Positions 29,994-51,539 of a stretch of 64,000 nt of DNA are shown piece after piece. How positions within the stretch are numbered: position 1 is the first letter of the stretch; every line of letters starts with the position of its first letter. A model generated the notes under the pieces. The model did not search any database. It saw nothing but the letters and a program-made list of their open reading frames with translations, and was not told where the DNA came from. The position numbers and the translations under genes are program-made. The DNA is from a virus (lineage: Duplodnaviria > Caudoviricetes): IMG/VR virus record IMGVR_UViG_3300010885_080481, one strand, 5' to 3'.

Positions 29994-31925
29994 TTGCAGA
30001 CTTTTAATAATTCTTTATTTGAAGAAAGCGTTCGTCCGGTAGTGATACCTGATCACATAAAAGTAGTTTTTGTTGCAGATTTATTTGCTGAAGACTACGT
30101 AGGTGGAGCAGAGTTAACCACTCAAGCTCTTATTGATGAATGTCCTTTACCTTACATAAAAATTCGTTCTAGAGAATTAACGATGTCCTTGCTAGCTCAA
30201 GGGGTCGGTAAATTTTGGATATTTGGAAATTTTGCCCAAATGAACGTAGAACTAATACCTACGATCATTGGAAATCTGAAATATTCGATATTGGAGTATG
30301 ACTACAAGTATTGTAAGTACAGATCTCCCGAAAAGCATTTAGAAAAAGAAAATTCCCCTTGCGATTGTCACAACAAGTTTAACGGTAAATTAATATCAGC
30401 TTTCTACTACGGTTCCCGTGGGATTTGGTGGATGTCAGAAGCACAAAAGAACCGTTATCACATGATGTTCCCATTTTTATCTGAAAAAGATAATGTGGTT
30501 TTATCTAGCGTATTTTCTAAAGATACTTTGGGTAAAATTAGATGGCTAAGAGAACATGTTTCTAATGACAACACCGACAGAAAAAAATGGATTGTTTTAG
30601 GGTCGAATTCTTGGGTTAAAGGTGCACAAAATGCAGAAAAATGGTGCATCGATAACAAAAAAGATTATGAAGTAGTCTGGAATATTTCTTACAATGAAAT
30701 GCTAGAAAAGCTGGCAAAAGCAGAAGGATTTGTATACCTCCCAGCCGGAGCCGATACTTGTCCACGAATGGTAATTGAAGCAAAACTTTTAGGTTGTAAA
30801 CTTCAGTTAAATGATTTCGTCCAGCATAAAGATGAAGAATGGTTCAACACGGATGATCTAACAAACGTTAGCGATTATCTCTATTCGACCCCAGGTGTAT
30901 TTTGGAATGGGATTAAAAAAATGATGGAATATAAGCCATCTGTTAGTGGATACACAACTGTGTATAATGCACTTTCTCAAGGATATCCATTCGTCCAGTC
31001 TATAAGATCCATGTTAGGATTTTGTAGCGAAGTTTGTGTTGTTGATGGAGGGTCTACAGATGGCACCTGGGAAAAGTTGCAAGACCTAGCAAAAGAAAAT
31101 TCTTGTTTAAAAGTAAAGCAAGTTACTAGAGATTGGAACCACCCCCGCTTTGCAGTTTTTGACGGGCTACAAAAAGCTGAATCCAGAATGATGTGTACTT
31201 CAGAATATTGTTGGCAGATGGACTGCGATGAGATAGTACACGAAGATGATTATGAAAAAGTAATAGACCTTTGCAGAAAATTTCCAGCAAACGTGGATAT
31301 CATTTCTCTACCAGTCGTTGAGTATTGGGGCGGCTCTAGTAAAGTAAGAGCTGATATTATGCCTTGGAAATGGAGAATCAGCAGAAATAAAAAGAACATA
31401 ACCCATGGTATTCCCGTGGATGCTAGGCTTACTGATTCTGAAGGAAACACATACGCAGCTTTTGGTGACGGTTGCGATATGATTGATTCAAAAACGGGAG
31501 AAAGAATTCCTCACGTAACTTTTTATAACAACGAAGTAGACAGTGTTAGAAAATTAGCTGTTTCCGGAGACCAGGAAGCTAATGCTCAATACCAAGAGTG
31601 GTTTAATAAAGTAGTAGATAATCTTCCTGGTGTGTTTCATTACAGCTGGTTTGATATAGAAAGAAAAATAAAACTATATAAAAACTATTGGACAAAACAT
31701 TGGGAATCTTTGTACGGAAAAACTTACGTAGATAATGCTGAGTCAAATATGATGTTTGATGTTCCTTGGTCTCAAGTTACGGATGAAATGATCAAGAATC
31801 GAGCCAAGTTGCTAGCTGAAGAAATAGGCGGATGGGTTTGGCACAAAAAGTGGGATGGCAAACAAAAAACTTTCCACATCACCGTAAACAAATCTCAACC
31901 CAAAATTATGTTGACTGAAAAATGA
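29994..31925 (+). CDS. two-domain glycosyltransferase (GT-B/GT4-like + GT2)
   Basis: N-terminal DTCPRMVIEAKLLG GT-B motif; C-terminal VVDGGSTDGT and QMDCDE GT-A motifs; TTG start with SD AAGAGG. Confidence 0.85.
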   Translation: MQTFNNSLFEESVRPVVIPDHIKVVFVADLFAEDYVGGAELTTQALIDECPLPYIKIRSRELTMSLLAQGVGKFWIFGNFAQMNVELIPTIIGNLKYSILEYDYKYCKYRSPEKHLEKENSPCDCHNKFNGKLISAFYYGSRGIWWMSEAQKNRYHMMFPFLSEKDNVVLSSVFSKDTLGKIRWLREHVSNDNTDRKKWIVLGSNSWVKGAQNAEKWCIDNKKDYEVVWNISYNEMLEKLAKAEGFVYLPAGADTCPRMVIEAKLLGCKLQLNDFVQHKDEEWFNTDDLTNVSDYLYSTPGVFWNGIKKMMEYKPSVSGYTTVYNALSQGYPFVQSIRSMLGFCSEVCVVDGGSTDGTWEKLQDLAKENSCLKVKQVTRDWNHPRFAVFDGLQKAESRMMCTSEYCWQMDCDEIVHEDDYEKVIDLCRKFPANVDIISLPVVEYWGGSSKVRADIMPWKWRISRNKKNITHGIPVDARLTDSEGNTYAAFGDGCDMIDSKTGERIPHVTFYNNEVDSVRKLAVSGDQEANAQYQEWFNKVVDNLPGVFHYSWFDIERKIKLYKNYWTKHWESLYGKTYVDNAESNMMFDVPWSQVTDEMIKNRAKLLAEEIGGWVWHKKWDGKQKTFHITVNKSQPKIMLTEK

Positions 31926-32644
31926 AAGGCATAATTTTAGCAGGTGGTACAGGAAGTCGTTTATACCCACTAACAAAAATCACTAATAAATGTTTGCTTC
32001 CAATAGCCGATAAACCTATGATTTGTCACGTGTTGGAGTTAATGACTTCCGCAGGTATCGATGAAATAATGCTGATTACAGGGCCTGAAAACGCAGGCCA
32101 AGTAATGGCTTTGTTGGGTTCTGGCGCAGAATATTCTTGTTCTTTGACTTACAGAATACAAGATAAAGCTAATGGCATCGCCGCCGCTTTAAATTTATGT
32201 AAAGGATTTGTAGGAAATTCTAAATTTACGGTGATTTTAGGAGATAATATCTTTGGTGAATATTCAAAGTTGTCTTCACAAATAAAAGAGTTTTATCAAT
32301 CAGACGAAGAATTTATGCTGTTCACAAAAAAGGTACCTGATCCTCATAGATTTGGAGTGCCTGTTTATGTAAATGGTAAAGTGATAGACATCATTGAAAA
32401 GCCAAAGAACCCAAGTACAGATCGAGCCGTTGTCGGTCTTTATTGTTATTCTTCTAATGTTTTTGAAGTCATTGAAGGATTACAACCTTCAGCCCGCGGA
32501 GAATATGAAATATCAGAAGTAAATTCATATTTGGTTAAGAATAAAAAAGGAAGTTTTTTTGACATAGAGTGTGGTTGGGTTGATGCAGGAACTCATGAGT
32601 CTTATAAGAAAGCTAACGAAATGATTTGGGAGAAAGCAAAATGA
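31922..32644 (+). CDS. rmlA: glucose-1-phosphate thymidylyltransferase
   Basis: GIILAGGTGSRLYPLT, K.LLPI.DKPM, LGDNIF, SARGEYEI, WVDAGT. Confidence 0.93.
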   Translation: MKGIILAGGTGSRLYPLTKITNKCLLPIADKPMICHVLELMTSAGIDEIMLITGPENAGQVMALLGSGAEYSCSLTYRIQDKANGIAAALNLCKGFVGNSKFTVILGDNIFGEYSKLSSQIKEFYQSDEEFMLFTKKVPDPHRFGVPVYVNGKVIDIIEKPKNPSTDRAVVGLYCYSSNVFEVIEGLQPSARGEYEISEVNSYLVKNKKGSFFDIECGWVDAGTHESYKKANEMIWEKAK

Positions 32645-33468
32645 AAGTAATCATCGGATCAGGCAAAGTTGCTAATATCATAAAAAATGATGATGATGTT
32701 ATTTTGCCTCACTCTCAAATAGAGATTAAAGATGAGACCTCGGTAGAAGAAGCTCTTTCTAAATTTCCAGCTGGTACAGTTGTCATCAATACTGCTGCAA
32801 AAATTAATCTAGAATGGTGTGAAGAAAATAAAGAAGAATCTAGGTTGGTCAACGTTGATGGAGCTATAAACGTTGCTAAAGCTTGTAAAAAACATGGACA
32901 TCACTTAGTTCATATAAGCAGTGGATGTATTTTTGATGGAATGGAAACTGAAAAAATATACACAGAAGTAGATGAACCTACACCTGCATCATGGTATGCA
33001 AAAACTAAGTCAGATGCTGATGCTGCAATCATGTCGCTGGGACATGACATGATAACTATAGTTCGTCCTAGACAACTAATATCAGCAATTCCTAACCCAA
33101 CTAACATGTTAACTAAGTTTATTAACTTGCAAAATGGTGATTTCATTGATTCGAAAAACTCTATTACTTGTATAGAGGATATGAAGTTAATGATTGATCA
33201 TCTAATTAATGGAAAGCATTACGGAATTTACAATCTTGCAAACATAGGGTGGCTCAGTCCTTATCAAATAGCCAATAAAGTAAAAAGCAGAATTTCAAGT
33301 AAACTTATCGTTAATAAAATAAACTACAAAGATTATTTGAAAAATATAAAAGTAAAAAGAGTTAACACTTTGTTGAGTGTTAATAAACTCATATCGACCG
33401 GATTTATGCCTAGGAATGCAATGGCCGCCTTAGAATGGTGTCTAGAAAATTATAGGAAAATAGCATGA
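32641..33468 (+). CDS. RmlD-fold NDP-4-keto-6-deoxyglucose reductase, NRS/ER-like (probable 3,5-epimerase/4-reductase)
   Basis: VINTAAK, HISSGCIF (in place of HISTDYVF), WYAKTK, NSITC, GIYNLAN. Confidence 0.8.
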   Translation: MKVIIGSGKVANIIKNDDDVILPHSQIEIKDETSVEEALSKFPAGTVVINTAAKINLEWCEENKEESRLVNVDGAINVAKACKKHGHHLVHISSGCIFDGMETEKIYTEVDEPTPASWYAKTKSDADAAIMSLGHDMITIVRPRQLISAIPNPTNMLTKFINLQNGDFIDSKNSITCIEDMKLMIDHLINGKHYGIYNLANIGWLSPYQIANKVKSRISSKLIVNKINYKDYLKNIKVKRVNTLLSVNKLISTGFMPRNAMAALEWCLENYRKIA

Positions 33469-34394
33469 ATGTAATCATTACGGGCGGGGCAGGATTCATA
33501 GGAGGTCACGCAGTCAAGCATTTTCAAAGTTTAGGAGATTCTGTTCTAAACGTAGACAAGCTTACGTATGCCAGCAAGAAAATCGATTTACAAGATTCAA
33601 ATTTTTTGCAACTGGATGTTTGTGAAACTGAACAGTTGATAGAACAAATAAAGAAACGTAAACCTGATTTTTTGATTCATTTTGCCGCAGAAACCCATGT
33701 AGATAACTCAATAGTTAACTGCGATGATTTTATTCACTCTAATGTAAAAGGGGTTGTTTCTGTCTTAAATGCATGTAAAGCAACAGGTACTAAGTTATGT
33801 CATATTTCCACCGACGAGGTATACGGCCCAGCTTATAATAGACCTTTTAACGAAGATGATTCTTTAAATCCTTTGAATCCTTATTCTTCTACAAAAGCTT
33901 CTGGCGATTTGCTGATTAAGTCTTATAGAAATACTTACGGATTAGAATACGTTATCGTTAGACCTTCTAACAACTATGGTCCTAATCAACACACTGAAAA
34001 GTTTATTCCCAAGTTGATTGATTGCTTGAAGAAAGGAGCTCAATTTCCTCTCTACGGAGCCGGTGATCAAGAAAGAGAGTGGACTTATGCAGAAGACACA
34101 GTTAAACTAATCAGGATGTTGTTAACTTCTAGGTTAACTGAATGGAATTCAGTTTATAACTTAAGTTCAGGAATAACATTTACAAACTTAGAAACAGCTA
34201 TGCATGTTTTAAAATCTTATAATTCGATTACGCAAAGCAACATTAAATTTGAAGACGTTATAAAGACTTCAAAAGACAGACCAGGTCATGATAGAAAATA
34301 CTGGATAACTGCTAACAAATTAAATTCCGTTGTAAAATTTGACTACACTGGATTTCAATCTGGGTTAGAAAAAACAATTTCTTCTTATGTCTAA
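33465..34394 (+). CDS. rmlB: dTDP-glucose 4,6-dehydratase
   Basis: TGGAGFIG, DKLTYA, HFAAETHVDNSI, HISTDEVYG, YSSTK, NNYGP, DRPGHDRKY. Confidence 0.93.
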   Translation: MNVIITGGAGFIGGHAVKHFQSLGDSVLNVDKLTYASKKIDLQDSNFLQLDVCETEQLIEQIKKRKPDFLIHFAAETHVDNSIVNCDDFIHSNVKGVVSVLNACKATGTKLCHISTDEVYGPAYNRPFNEDDSLNPLNPYSSTKASGDLLIKSYRNTYGLEYVIVRPSNNYGPNQHTEKFIPKLIDCLKKGAQFPLYGAGDQEREWTYAEDTVKLIRMLLTSRLTEWNSVYNLSSGITFTNLETAMHVLKSYNSITQSNIKFEDVIKTSKDRPGHDRKYWITANKLNSVVKFDYTGFQSGLEKTISSYV

Positions 34395-35127
34395 AAACAA
34401 CAAATTCGTGTTTGTGGCTCCCATGTATAACGCATCCGATACTTTACCTCGGATGCTTCATTCTATTTGTGGCCAATCTTACGAAAATTGGGAAATAGTA
34501 TTGGTCGACGATGTTTCTTCAAATGAGCATAAAGCAGCAGCATCAAAAACTTGTGAAGACTTTAAATCAATTTTAGAAGGAAAATATTCACAAAAAATTA
34601 AAGTTTTTTGGAATGATGACAAGAAATGGGAAGTTGCAAATGTCTTAAAAGGCATTTCTACATGTAAAGATGATGACATTGTCTGCAGGATTGATGCAGA
34701 TGATTGGTTGACAGACTTGGATTCTCTAGCCATTATTAATTTTGCATATAACACTTCTCAATGCGAAATTTTGTGGACTGCTCATAGGTGGAGCTTTTCT
34801 GATAAAAACATAAGCAACCATATGTCTGATGATGCGGATCCTTACAAACACCCTTGGGTCTCAAGCCATTTAAAAACTTTTAGAAAATATTTGCTTAATA
34901 ACGTAAAAGACGAAAATTACAGAGGTGAGGATGGCAATTATATACGAAGAGCTGGGGACCAAGCAATTTATTTGCCTGCTCTATATAACTCAAAAAAACG
35001 AAATTTCTTGCCAAGAGTGATGTATCACTATACTATAAAAGATGTTCCTGAAACTTATCAAACATCTGATGCTATATTCCAAAGAGATGAAGCATTGTTT
35101 TTAAGAAGTAGAGGTTATGTTAAATGA
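34387..35127 (+). CDS. glycosyltransferase family 2
   Basis: APMYNA, LVDDVS, RIDADDW. Confidence 0.88.
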   Translation: MSKNNKFVFVAPMYNASDTLPRMLHSICGQSYENWEIVLVDDVSSNEHKAAASKTCEDFKSILEGKYSQKIKVFWNDDKKWEVANVLKGISTCKDDDIVCRIDADDWLTDLDSLAIINFAYNTSQCEILWTAHRWSFSDKNISNHMSDDADPYKHPWVSSHLKTFRKYLLNNVKDENYRGEDGNYIRRAGDQAIYLPALYNSKKRNFLPRVMYHYTIKDVPETYQTSDAIFQRDEALFLRSRGYVK

Positions 35128-35486
35128 ACGGTAAAAAGTTAGATGAATCTATCAGCAAATTATTAACTGTTAGATTGTCAAAAAGAAAAGGACAAAAGCT
35201 AGACAGAAGTACATGTATAGAAATTTATAATGATATATTTTTTACCTTATCAGAGGTCGTAAAAAGTGCAAGTACTCCATTGTCTAACGAATCAGTCAAT
35301 CTTTTATCTCAAATGTATTACGATTCAATAACAATAAATGATAATCAGGAGCTAGATCCTAACATCTTTACTCAAAGAGCATCATTAAAAAATATTGAAA
35401 CAAAAGAATTAACCCTAATGTCTGTTATGGTAAGTGGAACTCCTTTTGCAGTTCCTTTTATCCAAGAGGTTAAGCGGAGATCGTGA
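35124..35486 (+). CDS. hypothetical protein (120 aa)
   Basis: Overlap-coupled at both ends; no family recognised. Confidence 0.65.
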   Translation: MNGKKLDESISKLLTVRLSKRKGQKLDRSTCIEIYNDIFFTLSEVVKSASTPLSNESVNLLSQMYYDSITINDNQELDPNIFTQRASLKNIETKELTLMSVMVSGTPFAVPFIQEVKRRS

Positions 35487-36406
35487 AAATTCACTTAGAT
35501 AACGTTAACTTGAACTCCAGTTCAGGACCAAATTCTTTTGCAAAAAGATTGTCAAAAGGCCTAATAGAATCTGGACATGAGGTAGAATTACATGATGGTA
35601 GAAGTTCAGATGTTTCTTTGGTTTTTATTGAACCTAGCGGCAGACCCTTGGCAAAGAAAGTTGTTCAGCGTTTGGATGGAATCTGGTTTTCTCCAGAGGA
35701 ATTTGAGACCAAAAATAGCAATATAAAAAATCTATATCAAAACTCCAGTGGAGTGATTTGGCAATCCGAATTTGACAAAGAGATGGTCACGAAATGGTGG
35801 GGTATCCACAAAAATGGAGCTGTCATAAGAAATGGTATAGACATAAATCCAGTAAAAAAGTTTTCTATACCTGCTCTTGAACAAATAAGAAATCAATATG
35901 AGATGGTTTTTGTTTGTTCGGCTAATTGGCATCCACAAAAAAGGTTACTAGAAAATATAAATCTTTATAAGCATTTAAGAAAATTTTATAAATCAGCTGC
36001 TTTAATAGTGATGGGATCTAATCCTGTTCAAGTAGCCGATAATCACATTTTTTACGCGGGGCCACAACCTCATGAAGTTTGTTTAGAGGTATTTTCTGCT
36101 GCAAATTGGATGATTCATTTAGCGTGGCTTGATCATTGTCCTAATACGGTTGTGGAAGCACTATCACAAGGTACTCCCGTTATTTGTTCAGAACATGGTG
36201 GGACAAAAGAGTTAGTTAAAGATTTTGGAATCATCTTAAAAGAATCTAGAAGTTATAACTACGAATTAACAAATTATGATAATCCCCCTGTTATGGATTA
36301 TTCTAACTTGAATAAACTTCCTAAAAAAAATGAACTAGGAAAGCATTTCGATATTTCTATACAAAGAACTCTACAAGATTATTTAGAATTTCTTAAAAGC
36401 TTATGA
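35483..36406 (+). CDS. glycosyltransferase family 4 (GT-B)
   Basis: SGPNSF, DHCPNTVVEALSQGTPVI. Confidence 0.85.
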   Translation: MKIHLDNVNLNSSSGPNSFAKRLSKGLIESGHEVELHDGRSSDVSLVFIEPSGRPLAKKVVQRLDGIWFSPEEFETKNSNIKNLYQNSSGVIWQSEFDKEMVTKWWGIHKNGAVIRNGIDINPVKKFSIPALEQIRNQYEMVFVCSANWHPQKRLLENINLYKHLRKFYKSAALIVMGSNPVQVADNHIFYAGPQPHEVCLEVFSAANWMIHLAWLDHCPNTVVEALSQGTPVICSEHGGTKELVKDFGIILKESRSYNYELTNYDNPPVMDYSNLNKLPKKNELGKHFDISIQRTLQDYLEFLKSL

Positions 36407-36735
36407 AAAAAGTAGAAAAAGGTTGGGGTTATGAACTTTGGATTCATAATGATGAAAAGTATTGCGGAAAATTATTATTCTTTAACAAGGGCAAAAAGTG
36501 TAGCTTGCATTATCATAAATTAAAGCATGAAACTTTTTACGTTCAATTAGGATCATTAAAATGTAAGTTCATCGATGGATCTAATGAAGATAACGTCATT
36601 TTAAATGCTGGAGATTCTAAAGAAATTCATCAAGGATTGATCCACCAAATGGAAGCATTAGAAGATACAGTCATGTTTGAATTTTCTACACAACACTTTG
36701 ATGAAGACAGTTATAGAATCCAAAAAGGTGATTAA
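36403..36735 (+). CDS. cupin, sugar isomerase/epimerase-like
   Basis: WGYE, CSLHYHKLKHETFYV and IHQM cupin metal motifs. Confidence 0.8.
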   Translation: MKKVEKGWGYELWIHNDEKYCGKLLFFNKGKKCSLHYHKLKHETFYVQLGSLKCKFIDGSNEDNVILNAGDSKEIHQGLIHQMEALEDTVMFEFSTQHFDEDSYRIQKGD

Positions 36736-37587
36736 ATGGGATTAGGCGGATATCTTACGTGGACAGCTGTTGCGAGAGAAATTTGTAATGCAACAGGATT
36801 AAATAAAGTTTTTCCATTTGAACAGCATAATGGTCCTTTGATTAAGACCATAAAAACTTCCATGTTTGAAAACAACCCTTATTTTCAGCAGGATTTTAAT
36901 AGTCGTTCACCGGCATTTCCTTTGCAGCTAAACAATCCTGCTACAAATTATTGTAAACAAGACACTCACGAAAAAGCTGTTCATAGGTATGATAAACACA
37001 TCATCGAACAAATTTGCGAATTTTATGGAATAAAAAATCCAAAGTTAAAATGTGAAATTTATTTTTCTGATGAGGAAAAGAAATTTGCTTTAGATGTGTT
37101 GTCTATTCATTCTTTGTCTACAAACAACTTTATTGTAATTGAACCTCAATCTAATGATGAATACACCGTTAACAAGCTTTATTCATTTAAAAAATGGCAA
37201 TTAGTAACAGACGAATTGGTTAAGCTAGGTTTTACTTTAGTTCAAGTAGGAAGAGAAAACAGGGGTAATCGATTAAAAAATGTGATTGATTTAACGGGAA
37301 AAACTAGCTTTAGAGAAGCCGCCGCAATTATAAAAAATTCCAGTTTGTTTATATCTTCAGAAGGTGGATTGATGCACGCCGCCAATGCTGTAGGCGTAAA
37401 AAGCGTGATTCTATTCACCGGATTTATTCATCCTAGAATGACAGGTTATCCTGAAAACAAAAACTTGTGGATAGGCAATGATCACGGTCCTTGTGGCATG
37501 AAAGTTCGTTGTCCTTCGTGCGCTAAGAATGTTGAAGATCATGATTACTTTGAAATTGTAGAAGCCGTCAAAGGTATAATCAAATGA
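36736..37587 (+). CDS. glycosyltransferase family 9 (heptosyltransferase-like)
   Basis: IDLTGKTSFREAAAII...FISSEGGLMHAANAVGVKSVILF, C-terminal PCG...CPSC. Confidence 0.82.
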   Translation: MGLGGYLTWTAVAREICNATGLNKVFPFEQHNGPLIKTIKTSMFENNPYFQQDFNSRSPAFPLQLNNPATNYCKQDTHEKAVHRYDKHIIEQICEFYGIKNPKLKCEIYFSDEEKKFALDVLSIHSLSTNNFIVIEPQSNDEYTVNKLYSFKKWQLVTDELVKLGFTLVQVGRENRGNRLKNVIDLTGKTSFREAAAIIKNSSLFISSEGGLMHAANAVGVKSVILFTGFIHPRMTGYPENKNLWIGNDHGPCGMKVRCPSCAKNVEDHDYFEIVEAVKGIIK

Positions 37588-38504
37588 GTATTTTAGTAAC
37601 AGGTGCAGCAGGATTTGTCGGGTCTAACATTGTAAAAAGACTTAATGATGTAGGTCACTACGATATTTATTTGGTTGATTCTATCAACGACAAAAATGAA
37701 AAAAACATTAAAAATGTTAAATACAAAGATCTTATAAGCAAAGAATCTTTTGATGCTTCCACTCTTGAAAAACTTAAAGAAATAAAAGTTGTATTTCATC
37801 AAGGCGCAATTACCGACACTACTTTTAATAATGAAATAGAGATGATGAGAGTGAACTACGATTTAAGCGTAATGATTTTCAATCACTGCGCTTTTAATAA
37901 TTGTAGCATGATTTATGCTTCATCAGCAGCGGTATATGGAATAGGTGATAATGGGTTTTCTGAAAATTCTTTTTGCGAAAACCCATTAAATGTTTATGCT
38001 GAATCTAAACTAAGATTCGATAATTACGTTAGAAGTTCAAAAGTAAATAACCAAGTTGTGGGGTTACGTTACTTCAACGTATTCGGAAAAAACGAAGACC
38101 ACAAATTGAAGATGGCTTCTCCAATAAACCAATTTTATAGACAAGCAAAGAGTATAGAAAAGGTAAGGGTTTTTGAAGGAAGCCAAAATTTTAAAAGAGA
38201 TTTTATTTGTGTAGACGACGTAGTGGACGTCAATATGTTTTTTTACGAAAATAAAAACATATCTGGAATTTTTAACTGCGGAACAGGACAAACTGCAACT
38301 TTTCAAGACGCAGCAGATATGGTGTCAAACCAGTTGAATGTCCCAATAGAAGAAATACCATTTCCAGATATTTTGAAAGGCAAGTATCAATCATACACCT
38401 GCGCTGATTTAACATCTTTAAGATCTGTCGGGTACAAAAAAGAATTTACGTCTTTTAAAAATGCTGCTTTTGATTATATAGACTTTATGAAAAATTCAGA
38501 GTGA
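37584..38504 (+). CDS. hldD: ADP-L-glycero-D-manno-heptose 6-epimerase
   Basis: VTGAAGFVGSN, FHQGAITDT, YASSAAVYG, NVYAESK, LRYFNVFG..E.HK..MAS, RDFICVDDV, YQSYTCADLT.LRSVGY. Confidence 0.92.
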   Translation: MSILVTGAAGFVGSNIVKRLNDVGHYDIYLVDSINDKNEKNIKNVKYKDLISKESFDASTLEKLKEIKVVFHQGAITDTTFNNEIEMMRVNYDLSVMIFNHCAFNNCSMIYASSAAVYGIGDNGFSENSFCENPLNVYAESKLRFDNYVRSSKVNNQVVGLRYFNVFGKNEDHKLKMASPINQFYRQAKSIEKVRVFEGSQNFKRDFICVDDVVDVNMFFYENKNISGIFNCGTGQTATFQDAADMVSNQLNVPIEEIPFPDILKGKYQSYTCADLTSLRSVGYKKEFTSFKNAAFDYIDFMKNSE

Positions 38505-38923
38505 TGAAAAAAGTAGTTTTCACAAATGGGTGTTTCGACATTCTTCACGTTGGTCATATAAAGCTATTAGAAGAATGTAGAAAGTTGTCGTGCGATGGAA
38601 CTGTTATAATCGGGCTTAACAGCGACGATAGCATCAAAAAATTAAAAGGAAGTTCCAGACCAATCAACGATCAATATTCTAGAAAAGTATTGCTAGAGTC
38701 TATTAGATTTGTTGATGAAGTCATTATTTTTGAAGAAGAAACTCCTGAAAATTTATTATCGATTATAAGACCTGACGTATTAGTTAAAGGCGGAGATTAT
38801 TCGATTGAACAAATTGCTGGAAAACAATTTGCAAATGAAGTTATAATATTTTCTTACTTAGATGGATTCTCTACAACGTCAACCATACGAAAAATATCAC
38901 AAAATTCTGGTGATAGGCGATAG
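38501..38923 (+). CDS. hldC: D-glycero-beta-D-manno-heptose 1-phosphate adenylyltransferase (RfaE domain II)
   Basis: FTNGCFDILHVGH, GLNSDDSIKKLKGSSRP, VKGGDY, STTS. Confidence 0.9.
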   Translation: MMKKVVFTNGCFDILHVGHIKLLEECRKLSCDGTVIIGLNSDDSIKKLKGSSRPINDQYSRKVLLESIRFVDEVIIFEEETPENLLSIIRPDVLVKGGDYSIEQIAGKQFANEVIIFSYLDGFSTTSTIRKISQNSGDRR

Positions 38924-39659
38924 CTGCGAAGACATATATCAATATGGAACTTGTGATAGATTGAGTCCTGAGGCACCTGTTCCGATTTTAAAACTTAATA
39001 AGACAGAAATAAAACCTGGCATGTGTATGAATGTAGCCAAGAATCTAGAGGGTTTAGGCTTAAACGTTGATGTTCTTACGCATAAGAAAAAAATAAAAAA
39101 ATACAGGTTTGTTGAAGAAAAAAGGTTGGTTCATCTACTGAGGGTAGACGAAGAAGACTGTCCGGTAGATTCCTTAGTTTGGGATGACGCAGAGTCACTT
39201 TTAAAAAATCAAGAATATGATGCAATTGTTATATCTGATTATAATAAGGGATTTATTAAAGATGACTTGTGCAGAAAGCTAATAGAGTTTGTTGACGGAA
39301 AGACTCCTGTCTTTGTAGACACAAAGAAGCAAGACATATCTTGTTATTCAGGTTGCATAATAAAAGTCAACAAATTTGAAAAAGAAAATATAAAAAAGCT
39401 TCCTGACTCAGATTACGAATTAATAGTAACCTTAGGGGAAGAAGGAGCTTTTTGGAATGACAAAGTTTATCCTACTAAAAAATCTAAATTGTATGACGTT
39501 TGTGGAGCCGGGGATACCTTCCTAGCAGCTTTAGTTTATAGTTACGTATCTAACAATTCTTTAGAAAATTCTATCATGTTTGCCAACAGATGTGCCAGTC
39601 TATCTGTTACTCATTTTGGTAATTTTATTTTGGATAATAAAGATGTCGCCGAGATTTGA
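38862..39659 (+). CDS. hldA: heptose-7-phosphate kinase (RfaE domain I, PfkB family)
   Basis: ILVIGDSCED.Y.YG...RLSPEAPVP, ISDYNKG, VDTK, VTLGEEG, DVCGAGDTF. Confidence 0.88.
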   Translation: MDSLQRQPYEKYHKILVIGDSCEDIYQYGTCDRLSPEAPVPILKLNKTEIKPGMCMNVAKNLEGLGLNVDVLTHKKKIKKYRFVEEKRLVHLLRVDEEDCPVDSLVWDDAESLLKNQEYDAIVISDYNKGFIKDDLCRKLIEFVDGKTPVFVDTKKQDISCYSGCIIKVNKFEKENIKKLPDSDYELIVTLGEEGAFWNDKVYPTKKSKLYDVCGAGDTFLAALVYSYVSNNSLENSIMFANRCASLSVTHFGNFILDNKDVAEI

Positions 39660-40263
39660 GGCTTTGATATTTGACTTTGATGGAACGCTTTGCAATTCCG
39701 AAGACTTGCATAAGTCATGTTTTATTGAATCTTTGAAACTTCATGGATATTCCTGGTGTTCTAAAAAAGAATTAATTTACCAACTTTCAAAAAATAAAAA
39801 AACCTTTAATAAACTTATGTTGTTGTCTGAACAAGGTCTATTAGACAAAAAAGACATAATAAACATAAACTCATTGAAGCAAGAGTTAACGATTGACAGA
39901 ATCAAGACTTCTAAAATGGATGAAGAAGTTTTTAATTTTCTTTTATCTCTAAAGAACGTAACGTTGGCAATTGCTTCTGATGCCAATAGAAACACAATAC
40001 TTTCTTTTTTGCAGCATAATCAAGCTTTCGATTTATTCAAACTGGTGGCAACTAGCGAAGATGTTGGATTAAAAACAAAACCTTCATCTAAAGTTTATGA
40101 GTTTGCTTTAAATAAATTGTCAGTATCTTCAGATAAAGTTGCTGTTTTTGAAGACACGAACGAAGGTATTGAAGCTGCGACAAACGCAGGAATTCAATTC
40201 GTATACAATTGTACATACAAAACTTTACATAATACTTTACAGAAAATTAAGGGATCCTTATGA
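39643..40263 (+). CDS. HAD-superfamily phosphatase (beta-PGM/Gph-like)
   Basis: IFDFDGTL, ASD, KPSSKVY, VFEDTNEGIEAA; start moved to the ATG at 39643. Confidence 0.85.
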   Translation: MSPRFEALIFDFDGTLCNSEDLHKSCFIESLKLHGYSWCSKKELIYQLSKNKKTFNKLMLLSEQGLLDKKDIININSLKQELTIDRIKTSKMDEEVFNFLLSLKNVTLAIASDANRNTILSFLQHNQAFDLFKLVATSEDVGLKTKPSSKVYEFALNKLSVSSDKVAVFEDTNEGIEAATNAGIQFVYNCTYKTLHNTLQKIKGSL

Positions 40264-41903
40264 AGATAGCTGGAGTTTGGCCTGGGCATGATTGTTCTTT
40301 TTGCGTTTTAGATGATGGACATCCAATCATCCATGCAGAGTTAGAAAGATACAATAGAGAAAAATCTCCTCCTGGAGATGCTGTAGAATTTATGTTCGAA
40401 AGATCTCCCGCTGAATCTCAAGAATTGGTGCACATAGCATCTGTTCATCCCACCAAAAAAACAAAGCAATATGCTGAGTCTTACAAAAAAGCAGAAGAAA
40501 TTGTAACGAAAAATGGGGGAAATATACACTTTTTCTCTCATCATAGAGCTCATGCTGCAAATGCATTTTATTCTAGCAACTTAAAAGAATCTTTGGTAAT
40601 AACGATAGATGGTGGCGGTTCTGAAGACGACTCTGGTACAGAAACTGCTTGCACCATTTGGTATGGAAATGATTGTAATTTAAAAAATCTAAAAACGTTT
40701 AAACCCTACGAACTCAATATTGGAGGAGTTTGGACCAGAATAACTAGATACGTTTTTAAGTTACAAAATGGATGGCCTCTAGGAGGTGAAGAAGGAACCA
40801 TCATGGCAATGGCAGCCTTTGGAGATGCCTCAAAGTATGCAGAAGATTTTTATAGAATGTTGACAGTAGATATCCTGCCTTCCAGCGTAAAACCTCACAA
40901 TCAACCTCCTGGAGCTACTTCTGATAAAGATCCTGTGCATCCTTATCTTGAACCTTGGGCTGCTATTGCTAGAAAATCTGAGCAAGACAAATTTGATTTA
41001 GCTGCCGGGCTTCAGGCTGCAACTGAAGTTTTAATAAAGCAATTAATAGAGTTTGCATTAACAGCCAGTCCTGCTACTAAAAATCTTTGCATTTCAGGCG
41101 GAGTCTCTCTAAATTCAGTTGCAATGGGTAAAATAAAATCTTGGTTCCCAGGAAGAATAGAAAACGTTTATATTCCGCCTGTTCCATATGACGGCGGCTT
41201 GGCTATTGGAGCAGCACAGATTGTTTGGCACGAAGTTTTAGGAAATCCTAGAATAGCTTGGCAAAAAAACTTCACTCCTTACTTAGGTGAAGTTTGGGAC
41301 AAAGGGCACTTTCATGAAACAGTCGCTAAGTATGATGTAGAAGTTTCTGAGTGTGATTCTGCTAGATTGGCTGATTTGTTAGCTGATGCAAAGATTGTTT
41401 CTGTCTTTAACGGAAAGAGTGAATCAGGCAGAAGAGCCTTAGGTAATAGAAGCATTTTAGCGGATCCTAGAAATCCGCAAATGAAAGATATTATAAATGA
41501 AAAAGTAAAGCACAGAAAATGGTTCAGGCCATTTGCTCCTTCTATCTTGGAATCAGACGTTTCTGAATGGTTTGTAGAGTATCAAGAAAGTCCATACATG
41601 CAGTTTGTTTTGAAATTTAAAGAAGATAAGAAGAGTTTGGTTCCTGCAGTGGTTCATGAAGATGGCACAGCTCGTCTACAAACAGTAAGAAAAGAAGATA
41701 ACGAGTGGTACTTTGACTTTTTAACAAAATGGAAAGAAAAATCAGGAGTGCCTCTGATTTTAAACACTAGTTTCAACGATAGAGAACCTATCTGCGAAAA
41801 CGTTTCTCATTCTATCAATTGCTTCTTGGGTACAAAGATTGATTATCTTTTCTTTCCGGAATATGGATTGATTTTAGAAAGAAAAAAGAAAGATAATTCA
41901 TGA
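40260..41903 (+). CDS. O-carbamoyltransferase (NodU/CmcH/TobZ family)
   Basis: GHDCS, ELERYNREK, HHRAHAANAF, IDGGG, GGVSLN, GRRALGNRSILADPR, RPFAPS, VHEDGTARLQTV, LNTSFN. Confidence 0.93.
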   Translation: MKIAGVWPGHDCSFCVLDDGHPIIHAELERYNREKSPPGDAVEFMFERSPAESQELVHIASVHPTKKTKQYAESYKKAEEIVTKNGGNIHFFSHHRAHAANAFYSSNLKESLVITIDGGGSEDDSGTETACTIWYGNDCNLKNLKTFKPYELNIGGVWTRITRYVFKLQNGWPLGGEEGTIMAMAAFGDASKYAEDFYRMLTVDILPSSVKPHNQPPGATSDKDPVHPYLEPWAAIARKSEQDKFDLAAGLQAATEVLIKQLIEFALTASPATKNLCISGGVSLNSVAMGKIKSWFPGRIENVYIPPVPYDGGLAIGAAQIVWHEVLGNPRIAWQKNFTPYLGEVWDKGHFHETVAKYDVEVSECDSARLADLLADAKIVSVFNGKSESGRRALGNRSILADPRNPQMKDIINEKVKHRKWFRPFAPSILESDVSEWFVEYQESPYMQFVLKFKEDKKSLVPAVVHEDGTARLQTVRKEDNEWYFDFLTKWKEKSGVPLILNTSFNDREPICENVSHSINCFLGTKIDYLFFPEYGLILERKKKDNS

Positions 41904-42847
41904 AAAAGATTCTAATCAATAGAAAGATCGTTACTGGACCTTACGGTGGTGGTAACAATTTTCTAAAATCAATTCATGATTTTTTGCTGAGTAAAAATCA
42001 TCATATAGTCTATGACCTATCGCACAAGGACATTGATCTGATCATTATGCATGATCCTAGGTACGATGAACTGGGAATTTCTGTTAACGAAATAGCTGCT
42101 TATAAAAGAGCATTTCCAAAAACCAAAGTGTTGCATAGAATTAATGAATGTGACGCAAGAAAAGGAACTAATGAGGTAGATAAACTCCTTATGATTTCTA
42201 ATTCAATTGCTGATGAAACTGTTTTTATTAGTGAATGGTTGAAAGAATACTTTGTAAGCAGAGGATTCAATAAGAGCTCCACTGTAATCTATAATGGTTG
42301 CAATTCATCATATTTTTATCCAAGAAATAATTTCCAAAAATTGAACTTGGATTGCCCAGTAAAGATTGTCACTCATCACTGGAGTGACAATTGGATGAAA
42401 GGATTCGATGCCTACAAATATCTTGATGAGATTTGTAAGAAGAATTCAGAAAAATATCAGTTTACATACATTGGTCGCTATGCTAAACAATATTCACCTG
42501 TAGCTACAAAAATAGTAGAACCCTTACATGGTAAAGAATTAGGCGATGAGTTAAGAAAACATGACGTATATATAACAGCGTCAAGATGGGAACCTTGCGG
42601 AATGCATCACATAGAAGGCGCCGCTTCAGGATTACCAGTACTTTACCATTCTGATGGAGGCGGCATAGTAGAAGGTTGCCAGAAACACGGAGTGATGTTT
42701 TCAAACGTCGAAGAGATGATTACGAAATTGAATGATTTGTTGAATGATTATTCTTCTATAAGATCAAAAATAGATTATGATTTTTTTTCTATTGATAGAT
42801 GTATTAAAGACTACTATTCTATAATTGAAAAAATGCTGTTAGGTTAA
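41900..42847 (+). CDS. glycosyltransferase family 4 (GT-B)
   Basis: GPYGGGN, SRWEPCGMHHIEGAASGLPVL. Confidence 0.85.
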   Translation: MKKILINRKIVTGPYGGGNNFLKSIHDFLLSKNHHIVYDLSHKDIDLIIMHDPRYDELGISVNEIAAYKRAFPKTKVLHRINECDARKGTNEVDKLLMISNSIADETVFISEWLKEYFVSRGFNKSSTVIYNGCNSSYFYPRNNFQKLNLDCPVKIVTHHWSDNWMKGFDAYKYLDEICKKNSEKYQFTYIGRYAKQYSPVATKIVEPLHGKELGDELRKHDVYITASRWEPCGMHHIEGAASGLPVLYHSDGGGIVEGCQKHGVMFSNVEEMITKLNDLLNDYSSIRSKIDYDFFSIDRCIKDYYSIIEKMLLG

Positions 42848-42850
42848 AAA

Positions 42851-43666
42851 ATGAAAAGAGCTGCAATAGGTTATCTGAGTTACGTCACAGAAAAAAACAA
42901 AAGTTTAAGATTGTTAGATTTTTATAAAAGTCTAGAATCTTTGTCACTTTTGGATAAGCAAATTTCAGATATTATTTCTATTGATAATTCTTCAATTTTT
43001 GAAGTTAGAGAGGCATTAAGTAACAACAAGTCTTTTGATTTTAAATTTCATTATGAAAAAAACTTTTACGACGTTTCTTTGTTTTACACTACGATGTGGT
43101 ATGCTAAACTAAATTGTTTAGATTATATCTGCTTTTTGTACGATGATTTTATAGTGTATGATGATGCTCTGCAAGATTCTATAGCTTTTTTAGATTCTAA
43201 TAAAGAAGTTTCTTGTGTAAGAATCCCAGCATACGATTTCAACAATCAAAAACATTTTGATACAAATTTTACGCCTAAGTCGATAAACCCAGATTCTGTT
43301 AGACATTATAATTCAGTTACAACAAAAGCTTTGACTTGGCAAGGACCGTTCAACATAAAAAATCATAATTTTTACGTGAATAATTGGCATTATACTTCTA
43401 GACCGACTATTTGGAGAAGAGAATATTTTGAAAAAATTCTAGATTCTCAAGGTTCTATAAGCAAAGTACTACAAGGTTTTGAATCATGGGCTTGTAAGGC
43501 TTTTTGTAATGCTAATTTAGTGACAGGAGTTCTAGATAAAGGGATGGTGGTAACAACTCCTGTAAAAAACTCAGCGCGAGGAATCGAGGTGAGTCCAAGA
43601 GAAGAAGCGGTTATAGACATTCAAGTCGATGAATTGAAAAAAGAATTTGAGACGTTCATAAAATGA
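42851..43666 (+). CDS. GT-A/GT2-like glycosyltransferase
   Basis: SIDNSS, YICFLYDDF, PTIWRREY; island context. Confidence 0.6.
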   Translation: MKRAAIGYLSYVTEKNKSLRLLDFYKSLESLSLLDKQISDIISIDNSSIFEVREALSNNKSFDFKFHYEKNFYDVSLFYTTMWYAKLNCLDYICFLYDDFIVYDDALQDSIAFLDSNKEVSCVRIPAYDFNNQKHFDTNFTPKSINPDSVRHYNSVTTKALTWQGPFNIKNHNFYVNNWHYTSRPTIWRREYFEKILDSQGSISKVLQGFESWACKAFCNANLVTGVLDKGMVVTTPVKNSARGIEVSPREEAVIDIQVDELKKEFETFIK

Positions 43667-44652
43667 AAATAATTGCGATAACACCAGATAAAAAACTAGA
43701 TTCAGTTTGCTCAGTCGTTATCGAAGGAATGAATGAAAGCAATGTTGAAGTAATAGCAACTGATCCTGGTAACTCTGTAATTAGAGTATATTCAGAAAAA
43801 GAAGTCATTGATCATGCAAAAAACGCTGATTTTATTTTTGCATTTTGGGGAAAAATAAGAGGAAATAACTCTCCACGTTATCATCTTTTAGAAAAGATAA
43901 TTAGACCAGAAATATCAGTCTATATCGATGGAAGCGAGTGGACAGCGACTGGATATCCTGACGGAGATAAAACAATCTCCGCTCCGTGGGGCAATGTTAA
44001 TAGCCAAGTTTATGAAGCAAAATTTGACCCTAAAAGGTGTAAAGGTAATCCTTGGATTAACGAAAGAATGAAAAATTTTTGTAAATGGTATTTCAAAAGA
44101 GAATGCTATCCTGAAGATGTAAATCAAGGAATCATACCTTTACCAATAGGCTGCCAAAATAAGTTTTTTGGAAATTACAACTTAAAAAAAGACATTGATG
44201 TATTTTGTTCTTTTGGACAAGTCGCTAACGGGTATCGATACGAGATAGAAAATTTTTGTAAAGATCTTAAAAACAAAGGTTATAATGTCGTCGTAAAAAA
44301 AGGATTAGAATATCAAGATTATTTGAGACATATTAACAGATCTTATATTTCTATTTCTTCGTGGGGAGCAGGAAATAGCTGCATGAGAATGTGGGAAAAC
44401 ATGGCAAATGAATCTTGTTGCTTTGCTCAAAGAACAGAAACTCTATTTCCAGATAAACCTGTTGACGGGCAGCATTACGTAGAATACTCTGACATGGATG
44501 AATTTAGAGAAAAGATATTCTATTATCTGTCAAGAAAAGAAGAATGCAAAAAGATTGGTGAGAATGGACGAAAATTTGTTAAAGAATTTCATTCTGGAAG
44601 AGCTAGGTTTGACTACATCATTAGACATTTAACAAGTGGTATACGTAAATGA
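43663..44652 (+). CDS. GT-B glycosyltransferase (CgeB/DUF3880-like)
   Basis: IDVFCSFG, ISISSWGAG..CMRMWE, DGQHYVEY, IGENGRKFV..FH. Confidence 0.7.
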   Translation: MKIIAITPDKKLDSVCSVVIEGMNESNVEVIATDPGNSVIRVYSEKEVIDHAKNADFIFAFWGKIRGNNSPRYHLLEKIIRPEISVYIDGSEWTATGYPDGDKTISAPWGNVNSQVYEAKFDPKRCKGNPWINERMKNFCKWYFKRECYPEDVNQGIIPLPIGCQNKFFGNYNLKKDIDVFCSFGQVANGYRYEIENFCKDLKNKGYNVVVKKGLEYQDYLRHINRSYISISSWGAGNSCMRMWENMANESCCFAQRTETLFPDKPVDGQHYVEYSDMDEFREKIFYYLSRKEECKKIGENGRKFVKEFHSGRARFDYIIRHLTSGIRK

Positions 44653-45452: not shown

Positions 45453-45455
45453 ATT

Positions 45456-46223: not shown

Positions 46224-46224
46224 C

Positions 46225-48071: not shown

Positions 48072-48097
48072 TTAAAACTAAAATATAAAATTTAATT

Positions 48098-48877: not shown

Positions 48878-48892
48878 GTTAAAGGACAAAAT

Positions 48893-51503: not shown

Positions 51504-51539
51504 AACAATCATCAAACTGAGTATATAGTCATACTTCAT

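What the first reader, a model, noticed from the sequence alone, without database searches (positions are those of the whole stretch)
36403..40263. ADP-heptose module in which a cupin and a generic HAD occupy the places of missing GmhA and GmhB
Seen: contiguous cupin - GT9 - hldD - hldC - hldA - HAD, with no SIS-fold GmhA and no GmhB-type (DRDG, CxH) phosphatase in the window. Known: the pathway is GmhA, HldA, GmhB, HldC, HldD; cupins include aldose-ketose isomerases; ADP-heptose is an ALPK1 agonist. Inference: non-orthologous replacement giving a self-contained heptose pathway, which would be new enzymology.
Basis: partly seen in the sequence, partly recalled or inferred. Interest (0 to 1): 0.7.

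Follow-up and report, generated by a model that had tools for sequence, protein, structure and literature searches.

The report
Phage heptose pathway with cupin isomerase
A large phage carries a compact gene set for making the activated sugar ADP-heptose, in which a 110-residue cupin protein most likely does the first step normally done by the unrelated enzyme GmhA; the same swap recurs in hundreds of phages and some bacteria but has not been tested by experiment.

Summary
At 36403-40263 (+) lie tightly overlapping genes for a cupin, a GT9 heptosyltransferase, HldD, HldC, HldA and a HAD-IA phosphatase. They sit in a roughly 26 kb sugar island of a myovirus-like phage. No SIS GmhA, GmhB-type HAD or mini-HAD is found in any ORF of 40 aa or more in the window.

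- **Linkage.** The cupin is 55-61% identical to a gene in the known cyanophage heptose cassette. Of 80 viral loci picked by HldA, 76 carry it and none has a clear SIS GmhA.
- **Exclusion.** Of 81 viral loci picked by SIS GmhA, none carries the cupin.
- **Fusions.** It occurs fused to HldA, HldC or a mini-HAD.
- **Cleanest case.** Two Saccharibacteria operons read cupin-HldA-GmhB-HldC-HldD.
- **Fold.** The model matches type II phosphomannose isomerase domains.

I read the cupin as a sedoheptulose-7-phosphate isomerase (about 0.75) and the HAD-IA as the 7-phosphatase (about 0.65).

The phage's remaining ~140 kb could not be searched. The cyanophage gene labelled "phosphoheptose isomerase" is really a small HAD phosphatase. 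Earlier notes of this scan reached the same cupin idea on other phages.

The parts
36403..36735 (+). 110-aa metal-binding cupin, a stand-alone domain like type II phosphomannose isomerase. Proposed sedoheptulose-7-phosphate isomerase, functionally replacing SIS GmhA.
   Evidence: Cupin_2 28.8 bits. H36, H38, E43 and H81, which occupy the cupin-consensus metal-ligand positions, are invariant in 27 homologs. AF2 pLDDT 96. Best Swiss-Prot AFDB matches are the C-terminal cupin domains of ManC, XanB and AlgA, TM 0.87-0.89. Linked to HldA and HldC in 76 of 80 viral loci. Found fused to HldA, HldC or a mini-HAD.
36736..37587 (+). GT9-family glycosyltransferase, a putative heptosyltransferase with unknown acceptor.
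   Evidence: PF01075 48.6 bits, cut-off 22. Weak hits to LPS heptosyltransferases I-III and to TibC/Aah-type protein heptosyltransferase. Same position in relatives L006, L007, L009.
37584..38504 (+). HldD, ADP-glycero-manno-heptose 6-epimerase.
   Evidence: TIGR02197 318.6 bits, above the 274.6 cut-off.
38501..38923 (+). HldC, heptose-1-phosphate adenylyltransferase (single domain).
   Evidence: TIGR02199 160 bits (cut-off 181.5), aligned to model positions 11-143 of 144. HVGH and FSTT motifs are present. The fifth position of the (F/L)xxGxSTT motif is F, not R.
38862..39659 (+). HldA, heptose-7-phosphate 1-kinase of the PfkB family, a short phage form. The alternative start is GTG 38910.
   Evidence: TIGR02198 151 bits in three stretches. 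The GAGD motif and 29 invariant columns are shared with 10 homologs. JGI calls a 249-aa gene.
39643..40263 (+). HAD-IA phosphatase (beta-PGM/YqaB-like, capped). Proposed heptose-1,7-bisphosphate 7-phosphatase in place of GmhB. The frame is open from 39580.
   Evidence: HAD_2 91.8 bits and TIGR01509 48.2 bits (cut-off 29.4). The HAD-IIIA model scores only 18.3 bits against a 44.6 cut-off. Motifs DFDGT, S, K and ED are intact. No hit with Saccharibacteria GmhB as query. It overlaps the end of HldA by 17 nt. The same slot holds a mini-HAD or a GmhB-like HAD in other phages.
40260..41903 (+). NodU/CmcH-type carbamoyltransferase, a conserved companion of the cassette.
   Evidence: Carbam_trans_C 207 bits and Carbam_trans_N 79 bits. 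It lies next to HldC-HldA in many viral loci and corresponds to T4-GC 303 of cyanophages.
29994..55766 (+). Surrounding sugar-biosynthesis island on one strand. It holds about ten glycosyltransferases, RmlA, RmlB-like and RmlD-like enzymes, several SDR epimerases, a methyltransferase and a UDP-glucose dehydrogenase-like gene.
   Evidence: Pfam scans.

Best explanation
The stretch is a phage-borne, probably self-sufficient pathway from sedoheptulose-7-phosphate to ADP-L-glycero-beta-D-manno-heptose, with its own transferase.

Proposed steps:
1. The cupin uses a metal held by H36, H38, E43 and H81. It isomerises sedoheptulose-7-P to D-glycero-D-manno-heptose-7-P. This is the seven-carbon counterpart of fructose-6-P to mannose-6-P, the reaction of type II phosphomannose isomerase cupins. 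Inferred, about 0.75.
2. HldA phosphorylates O1. Family assignment.
3. The HAD-IA, with Asp11 and Asp13 in the 206-aa form, removes the 7-phosphate. Inferred, about 0.65.
4. HldC adenylylates the sugar.
5. HldD epimerises C6''.
6. The GT9 enzyme transfers heptose to an unknown acceptor, and the adjacent carbamoyltransferase may modify the product. Inferred.

The cupin is a non-homologous replacement of SIS-fold GmhA. The HAD-IA is a same-superfamily, different-subfamily replacement of GmhB.
For: **Anatomy.** Six overlapping genes with family matches.

**Linkage.**
- Of 85 viral loci found through the cupin, most hold HldA, HldC, HldD or a mini-HAD beside it.
- Of 80 viral loci found through HldA, 76 hold the cupin. 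Only one has any SIS hit, a 24-bit match in a 335-aa ORF.
- Gene order varies widely while linkage is kept. Examples are HldC-HldA-miniHAD-cupin, cupin-HldD-HldC-HldA, HldA-cupin-HldD and cupin-GT9-HldD-HldC-HldA-HAD.

**Exclusion.** In 81 viral loci found through SIS GmhA, 61 have HldC nearby and none has the cupin.

**Complete genomes.** There is no GmhA in five cyanophage isolates, nor in the two IMG/VR genomes rated 100% complete.

**Host supply.** Only about 8-9 of 41 picocyanobacterial genomes have a GmhA-sized SIS protein.

**Fusions.** HldA-cupin, HldC-cupin, cupin-HldC and nine miniHAD-cupin proteins exist.

**Saccharibacteria.** The operon reads cupin, HldA (TIGR02198 275.6 bits), GmhB (NF006506 169-174 bits), HldC, HldD (TIGR02197 345 bits). 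The cupin is 57-60% identical to the window's. G049 gave no SIS_2 match. G050 gave only a 20.6-bit fragment at a contig start.

**Fold and motifs.**
- AF2 pLDDT is 96.
- The top 17 Swiss-Prot AFDB matches are the C-terminal cupin domains of ManC, XanB and AlgA, TM 0.86-0.89.
- PDB matches include D-lyxose/D-mannose isomerase 7nzo and the roughly 110-aa Thermococcus phosphomannose isomerases 7zvm and 7zvy.
- YC.K, H.H, K.ETF and EFS.Q..DE are shared with 7nzo.

**Phosphatase slot.** Among the 80 HldA-sampled loci, 35 have a mini-HAD, 11 a GmhB-like HAD and 2 this HAD-IA.
Against: - No activity data exist for any family member that I could find.
- The two module types may each descend from one ancestor. 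If so, the mutual exclusion counts few independent events.
- Homologs 52-57% identical in Binataceae sit beside GDP-mannose 4,6-dehydratase.
- Binataceae lack a type I PMI in all 81 genomes searched, and the ManC-type matches listed end near model position 350, before the cupin domain. There the cupin could equally be a phosphomannose isomerase.
- In the 9 Binataceae genomes that have a GmhA-like gene, the cupin is present too.
- One viral contig (L055) has both the cupin and a good SIS gene 9 kb apart.
- Metal-binding cupins such as the CapF C-terminal domain, which to my recollection acts on nucleotide sugars, match the model almost as well (TM 0.84).
- Thirty of the 76 cupin-bearing loci in the HldA-sampled set have no detectable HAD, so a phage phosphatase is not obligatory.
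- About 140 kb of this phage's genome could not be searched.
Confidence: 0.6

Rival explanations
1. The cupin is an ordinary phosphomannose isomerase (fructose-6-P to mannose-6-P) that feeds another branch of the sugar island. The heptose genes rely on the host's GmhA.
For: The nearest structural relatives are type II PMI domains. Binataceae homologs lie next to GDP-mannose dehydratase, in genomes with no other recognisable PMI.
Against: No phosphomannomutase or mannose-1-P guanylyltransferase accompanies the cupin in the phage cassettes. Its constant partners are HldA, HldC, HldD and a HAD. It is fused to those enzymes. Most picocyanobacterial hosts lack GmhA. It never co-occurs with SIS GmhA in 81 SIS-type viral modules.
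Confidence: 0.12
2. The cupin modifies the finished nucleotide sugar. It would work with the adjacent SDR as an epimerase or keto-isomerase, as CapF, RmlC or FdtA-type cupins do, and heptose-7-P would come from the host.
For: The cupin often lies next to the HldD-like SDR. CapF and WbjC cupin domains match the model at TM 0.84.
Against: This would not explain why SIS-type modules never carry the cupin and cupin-type modules almost never carry SIS. The fusions are to the early-step enzymes, the kinase and the phosphatase. A Saccharibacteria locus has a true RmlC as well as the cupin. Sequence motifs follow PMI and lyxose isomerase.
Confidence: 0.1
3. The HAD-IA is a general sugar-phosphate phosphatase or mutase serving another branch of the island. 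The 7-phosphate of the heptose bisphosphate is removed by host enzymes.
For: The best family match is the broad beta-phosphoglucomutase/YqaB group, below its subfamily cut-off. Thirty of the 76 cupin-bearing loci in the HldA-sampled set have no HAD at all. A published survey reports no GmhB homolog in viruses (PMC11461863).
Against: It overlaps HldA's stop by 17 nt and keeps that place in the three closest relatives. In other cassettes a HAD is often encoded within the cassette: usually a mini-HAD directly after HldA, sometimes a GmhB-like HAD on the opposite strand upstream of HldC.
Confidence: 0.3

Closest known systems
Cyanomyovirus heptose gene set (T4-like gene clusters 303-308 of S-SM2, S-SSM7, S-CAM1, P-TIM68 and S-T4)
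   Same: Homologs of the carbamoyltransferase (303), HldC (304), HldA (305), cupin (307, 55-61% identical) and HldD (308) are clustered together, with no SIS GmhA in the genome.
   Different: Here the about 110-aa mini-HAD (306) is replaced by a capped HAD-IA. A GT9 gene sits inside the cassette, and the carrier is a different phage whose terminase is only about 33% identical to a cyanophage's. In the cyanophage records the mini-HAD is labelled 'phosphoheptose isomerase'. The cupin is labelled 'nucleotidyltransferase' or 'cysteine dioxygenase'. Neither label fits the sequences.
Canonical ADP-L-glycero-beta-D-manno-heptose pathway (GmhA, HldA/HldE, GmhB, HldC/HldE, HldD) of Gram-negative bacteria
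   Same: The same proposed five reactions. HldD, HldC and HldA are homologs of the bacterial enzymes.
   Different: Step 1 would be done by a cupin instead of an SIS-fold enzyme. Step 3 would be done by a HAD-IA instead of the HAD-IIIA GmhB. The kinase and the adenylyltransferase are separate genes in the order HldC then HldA.
Type II phosphomannose isomerase cupin domain (C-terminus of AlgA, XanB, ManC) and the stand-alone Thermococcus phosphomannose isomerases (PDB 7zvm, 7zvy)
   Same: The same small cupin barrel (TM 0.87-0.89 to ManC, XanB and AlgA; about 0.77 to 7zvm) and a similar size to the Thermococcus enzymes. Residues sit at the cupin-consensus metal-ligand positions (HxH, E, H). The chemistry is analogous: a ketose phosphate becomes a manno-configured aldose phosphate.
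   Different: Sequence identity is only 16-23%. PF01050 scores 19.6 bits against a 23.6 cut-off. The genomic partners point to a seven-carbon substrate.
Viral NDP-heptose biosynthetic enzymes reported by Tang et al., Science 2024, as summarised in PMC11573728 and PMC11461863
   Same: Viruses encode working heptose kinase and nucleotidyltransferase enzymes that make ADP-heptose.
   Different: According to the summary, that survey intersected nucleotidyltransferase homologs with homologs of the other three known enzyme types, and found no phosphatase in viruses. By that description, cupin-type cassettes and their non-GmhB HADs would not be recognised.

Membership tests
GmhA (SIS-fold sedoheptulose-7-phosphate isomerase) | SIS_2 domain (PF13580, TIGR00441) | tested here: not met
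   The cupin matches only cupin families. An SIS HMM built from 51 viral GmhA sequences gives no hit to any window ORF at E<=10.
Cupin superfamily, type II PMI-like | Small double-stranded beta-helix fold | tested here: met
   AF2 pLDDT 96, all beta. Foldseek TM 0.87-0.89 to ManC, XanB and AlgA C-terminal domains.
Cupin superfamily, type II PMI-like | Two cupin motifs supplying the His, His, Glu and His metal ligands | tested here: met
   G(x)5HxH(x)4E(x)6G at residues 30-50 and G(x)5HxG(x)2H at 70-81. H36, H38, E43 and H81 are invariant in 27 sequences.
Cupin superfamily, type II PMI-like | Match to the curated PMI C-terminal model PF01050 | tested here: not met
   19.6 bits against a cut-off of 23.6.
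D-lyxose/D-mannose isomerase (PF07385) | Match to the family model | tested here: not met
   19.6 bits against a cut-off of 20.8. A profile of the cupin family matches PDB 7nzo at E 8e-5 over positions 12-109, with shared motifs.
Cupin superfamily, type II PMI-like | Aldose-ketose isomerase activity on a sugar phosphate | not testable with these tools
   This needs an enzyme assay.
GmhB (HAD-IIIA heptose-1,7-bisphosphate 7-phosphatase) | Match to GmhB or HAD-IIIA models (TIGR00213, NF006506, TIGR01662) | tested here: not met
   TIGR01662 scores 18.3 bits against a 44.6 cut-off, and there is no TIGR00213 hit. No phmmer hit with two Saccharibacteria GmhB sequences.
HAD superfamily, subfamily IA | Catalytic motifs I-IV and the subfamily model | tested here: met
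   DFDGT, S, K and ED are present. PF13419 scores 91.8 bits and TIGR01509 48.2 bits, above its 29.4 cut-off.
HldD | Equivalog model TIGR02197 above its cut-off | tested here: met
   318.6 bits against 274.6.
HldC (RfaE domain II) | Equivalog-domain model TIGR02199 above its cut-off | tested here: inconclusive
   160 bits against 181.5, aligned to model positions 11-143 of 144. It is the best hit by far. The HxGH and STT motifs are present.
HldA (RfaE domain I) | Equivalog-domain model TIGR02198 above its cut-off | tested here: inconclusive
   151 bits against 345, in three stretches. This is a shortened phage form. The GAGD motif is kept, and it aligns with a full-length Saccharibacteria HldA.
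Glycosyltransferase family 9 | PF01075 above its cut-off | tested here: met
   48.6 bits against 22. The acceptor is unknown.
Cyanophage heptose cassette (T4-GC 303-308) | Clustered homologs of all six gene clusters | tested here: not met
   Five of the six are present. The mini-HAD (306) is absent from the window and a HAD-IA stands in its place.

The most novel reading that the evidence does not exclude
A widespread, unrecognised family of about 110-residue cupins serves as the sedoheptulose-7-phosphate isomerase of ADP-heptose synthesis. At least 4,231 protein clusters at 90% identity match it at E<=1e-5. It would operate in many phages, in Saccharibacteria and probably in Binataceae. In Binataceae, HldE is found in 77 of 81 genomes, GmhA in 9 and the cupin in 76. 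The cupin may there double as phosphomannose isomerase. If this holds, heptose-making capacity is under-counted wherever it is inferred from GmhA homologs.
Probability: 0.6. Interest if true: 0.75.

Novelty: new variant of a known kind. Interest (0 to 1): 0.68.

Why it matters
- **Enzymology.** It would add a non-homologous enzyme for the first committed step of heptose synthesis. That pathway is studied as an antibiotic target and as the source of the innate-immune agonist ADP-heptose.
- **Host independence.** It explains how phages can make heptose in hosts that lack GmhA, which is the case for most marine picocyanobacteria sampled here.
- **Annotation.** It corrects labels carried by cyanophage records since about 2010. 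The gene called "phosphoheptose isomerase" is a HAD phosphatase, and the gene called "nucleotidyltransferase" or "cysteine dioxygenase" is the likely isomerase.
- **Surveys.** Searches that require a GmhA homolog miss these pathways in viruses, candidate-phyla bacteria and Binatota.
- **Testability.** The prediction can be tested directly with four or five small soluble proteins.

Tried and rejected
- **Own genome.** Searching the window's own genome for gmhA and gmhB was not possible because no genome is held. The 206 kb contig that carries the cupin was not returned by the contig look-up.
- **Cyanophage 'phosphoheptose isomerase' as a true GmhA.** Rejected. It has no SIS match. It has the HAD motifs DIDGT, TARG, GKP and DD, and its best model is the EcbF/BcbF capsule phosphatase family.
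- **The 120-aa ORF at 35124-35486 as a hidden mini-HAD or isomerase.** It shows no similarity.
- **The cupin as the missing RmlC of the nearby dTDP-sugar genes.** Rejected. A Saccharibacteria locus carries a true RmlC (225 bits) beside the cupin, and the cupin keeps a full metal site.
- **Single-sequence scan for viral GmhA.** It found one locus, so I repeated it with an alignment.
- **Binataceae phyletic pattern as a decisive test.** It is not decisive. The family lacks both GmhA and any recognised phosphomannose isomerase, so the pattern fits either substrate.
- **Cupin-bearing cellular genomes in general.** 11 of 50 have a GmhA-like gene. Six of those 11 carry the cupin on phage-like contigs. 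There is no matched background rate, so I give this little weight.
- **Literature.** Searches for a cupin-type heptose isomerase found nothing relevant.

Full report
**What is in the window.** The window has about 33% G+C and is phage DNA.
- The minus strand from 1 to 29873 encodes a T4-type large terminase, a fused SbcD/SbcC-like nuclease and a primase.
- It also encodes a PIN-PhoH protein, a helicase, a head maturation protease and several large proteins with no family match.
- The plus strand ends with a late sigma factor and baseplate wedge proteins.
- Between them, 29994-55766 is one co-directional island of sugar-metabolism genes.
- No whole genome is held for the window. The cupin protein is on record on a contig of 206,273 bases.

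**The observation.**
- Neighbouring genes abut or overlap by 4-17 nt.
- HldD passes its equivalog cut-off. HldC and HldA score below theirs, but those models are by far their best matches, and HldC and HldA keep their signature motifs.
- The HAD belongs to subfamily IA and not to the GmhB-type IIIA group. Its likely start is ATG 39643.
- HMMs for SIS GmhA and for the phage mini-HAD give no hit in any window ORF of 40 aa or more at E<=10, and phmmer with two canonical GmhB sequences gives none at E<=1e-3.
- The next gene, a carbamoyltransferase at 40260-41903, proved to be a regular companion of this cassette.

**Relatives in isolated phages.** The cupin has 55-61% identical homologs in 35 phage records, all marine cyanophages or marine single-cell viral contigs.
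- There it lies with HldC, HldA, HldD, a carbamoyltransferase and a gene of about 110 aa labelled "phosphoheptose isomerase".
- That last gene has no SIS domain. It carries the four HAD motifs, and its best match is the EcbF/BcbF capsule phosphatase model.
- So the cyanophage cassette, like this one, consists of a kinase, a nucleotidyltransferase, an epimerase, a HAD and the cupin, with no recognisable isomerase.
- Five complete cyanophage genomes have no GmhA match at all.

**Linkage across uncultured viruses.** I sampled IMG/VR three ways.

| Sampled by | Loci | With cupin | With SIS GmhA |
|---|---|---|---|
| Cupin | 80 viral loci; the HMM set of 86 adds the window and 5 cyanophage loci | all | 2 in flanks by HMM: one good gene 9 kb away on L055, one weak. 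1 of 47 whole contigs weakly (the same contig as L055) |
| HldA | 80 | 76 | 1 marginal hit in a 335-aa ORF |
| SIS GmhA | 81 | 0 | all (61 with HldC nearby, 42 with an HldD-like gene) |

- In the cupin-sampled loci, most carry a mini-HAD, HldA, HldC or HldD within a few kb.
- The window's closest relatives repeat its exact order.
- The two IMG/VR genomes rated 100% complete lack SIS GmhA.

Viral heptose modules therefore come in a cupin type and a SIS type that almost never mix. Within the cupin type the gene order is shuffled in at least five ways while linkage is kept. The caveat is ancestry. Each type may go back to one origin, so the counts overstate the number of independent events.

**Fusions.** Among longer proteins containing the cupin are one HldA-cupin, five HldC-cupin, one cupin-HldC and nine miniHAD-cupin fusions. 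This places the cupin in the same pathway, next to the early sugar-phosphate steps.

**Cellular genomes.** The cleanest case is in two Saccharibacteria assemblies.
- Their operon reads cupin, HldA (275.6 bits), a canonical GmhB (169-174 bits to NF006506), HldC and HldD (345 bits).
- In L098 a true RmlC lies just upstream of the cupin.
- These cupins are 57-60% identical to the window's.
- One assembly gave no SIS_2 match. The other gave only a 20.6-bit fragment at a contig start.
- Four of the five steps have canonical enzymes. The only step without one is the isomerase, and the only gene without a role is the cupin.

The Binataceae pattern fits the hypothesis but does not prove it.

| Feature in 81 Binataceae genomes | Genomes with it |
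|---|---|
| HldE-like gene | 77 |
| The cupin | 76 |
| GmhA-like gene | 9 |
| Type I phosphomannose isomerase | 0 |

- The ManC-type matches listed end near model position 350, before the cupin domain.
- One Binataceae homolog sits beside GDP-mannose dehydratase.
- So the cupin there could be a mannose-6-P isomerase, a heptose isomerase or both.

**Host supply.** Among 41 genomes of the picocyanobacterial family, only about 8-9 have a GmhA-sized SIS protein. Most hosts of the cyanophage cassette cannot supply heptose-7-phosphate.

**Structure and chemistry.**
- The AF2 model is confident, with pLDDT 96.
- Its best Swiss-Prot AFDB matches are the C-terminal cupin domains of bifunctional mannose-1-P guanylyltransferase/phosphomannose isomerases (ManC, XanB, AlgA). 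TM is 0.86-0.89 over the whole protein.
- PDB matches include D-lyxose/D-mannose isomerase and the roughly 110-residue Thermococcus phosphomannose isomerases, alongside many other cupins.
- A family profile aligns to lyxose isomerase 7nzo over positions 12-109, sharing motifs beyond the metal site.
- H36, H38, E43 and H81, at the cupin-consensus metal-ligand positions, and several basic residues (K23, K31, K41, R105) are invariant.
- From established knowledge, these enzymes interconvert a ketose with the manno-configured aldose. Sedoheptulose-7-P to D-glycero-D-manno-heptose-7-P is the seven-carbon analogue of fructose-6-P to mannose-6-P.

**The phosphatase.**
- In the 80 HldA-sampled loci, 35 have a mini-HAD, usually directly after HldA. 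Eleven have a GmhB-like HAD and two have this HAD-IA. Thirty cupin-bearing loci have none.
- In the window's clade the HAD-IA overlaps the end of HldA, the place the mini-HAD holds elsewhere.
- This supports the 7-phosphatase role. It also shows that a phage-encoded phosphatase is dispensable.

**Comparison with the literature.**
- The cyanophage genes are cited as heptose-related LPS genes, with the "phosphoheptose isomerase" label taken at face value (PMC7378029).
- According to two commentaries, Tang et al. (Science 2024) showed that viral enzymes make ADP-heptose. They found their candidates by intersecting homologs of the known enzyme types and reported no phosphatase in viruses.
- I found no paper proposing a cupin heptose isomerase.
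- Earlier notes of this scan reached the same idea on other phage genomes. They are not independent evidence.
- Another note places collagen-like fibres with their own glycosyltransferase about 13.6 kb beyond this window. It is only a lead for what the heptose might decorate.

**Verdict.** I put the cupin as sedoheptulose-7-P isomerase at about 0.75 and the HAD-IA as the 7-phosphatase at about 0.65. The whole self-contained pathway stands at about 0.6. This particular locus is a variant of a cassette already catalogued in cyanophages. The enzymology it implies appears to be undescribed.

Noticed in passing
L001:5682-6005, L002:5676-6005 and 4035-4346, L003:7342-7680, L004:6634-6969: The cyanophage gene cluster T4-GC 306, labelled 'phosphoheptose isomerase' in GenBank and RefSeq records, is a capless HAD phosphatase of about 110 aa with motifs DIDGT, TARG, GKP and DD. 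The neighbouring cupin (T4-GC 307) is labelled 'putative nucleotidyltransferase' or 'cysteine dioxygenase'.
   Followed up: yes
window 29994-55766: A one-strand sugar island of about 26 kb. It holds about ten glycosyltransferases (GT2, GT4, GT9), RmlA, RmlB-like and RmlD-like genes but no RmlC. It also holds several SDR epimerases, a methyltransferase and a carbamoyltransferase. No flippase or polymerase was recognised, and four ORFs of 250-275 aa have no family match. The acceptor of the glycan is unknown.
   Followed up: partly
window 51540-53308: The UDP-glucose/GDP-mannose dehydrogenase-like gene is only 305 aa, with the N-terminal and central domains but no C-terminal domain. It is followed directly by a PD-(D/E)XK nuclease gene inside the sugar island. 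This may be a truncated or interrupted gene.
   Followed up: no
window 2877-6017 (-) and 22130-23701 (-): A single 1046-aa protein combines an SbcD-like metallophosphoesterase with an SbcC-like part. Separately, a 523-aa PhoH protein carries an N-terminal PIN domain.
   Followed up: no
window 8105-21092 (-): Five large ORFs (829, 402, 619, 1330 and 853 aa) have no PHROG match, and the four that were also scanned against Pfam (all but the 1330-aa ORF) have no Pfam match either.
   Followed up: no
L027:6808-8175 and L084:927-2294: A 456-aa fusion of a beta-phosphoglucomutase-like HAD-IA with a sugar-1-phosphate nucleotidyltransferase lies near a miniHAD-cupin pair. There is an HldD-like gene nearby but no HldA or HldC. 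This could be a different route to an NDP-heptose.
   Followed up: no
Binataceae genomes (family of G051): In 81 genomes, HldE is found in 77, the cupin in 76 and GmhA-like SIS in 9. Type I phosphomannose isomerase is found in none, and the ManC-type matches listed lack the cupin domain. In G162, G164, G197 and G111 the cupin lies 0.5-4 kb from an HldE copy.
   Followed up: partly
L055 (IMG/VR contig 3300012953_006946), cupin at 9974-10330, SIS gene at 19314-19898: This is the one viral contig found with both the cupin and a good SIS GmhA-like gene (78.5 bits), 9 kb apart. No HldA or HldC was detected nearby.
   Followed up: no
window 38501-38923: The fifth position of HldC's (F/L)xxGxSTT motif is F rather than R (YLDGFSTT). 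By the published rule this predicts ADP-heptose rather than CDP- or UDP-heptose.
   Followed up: partly
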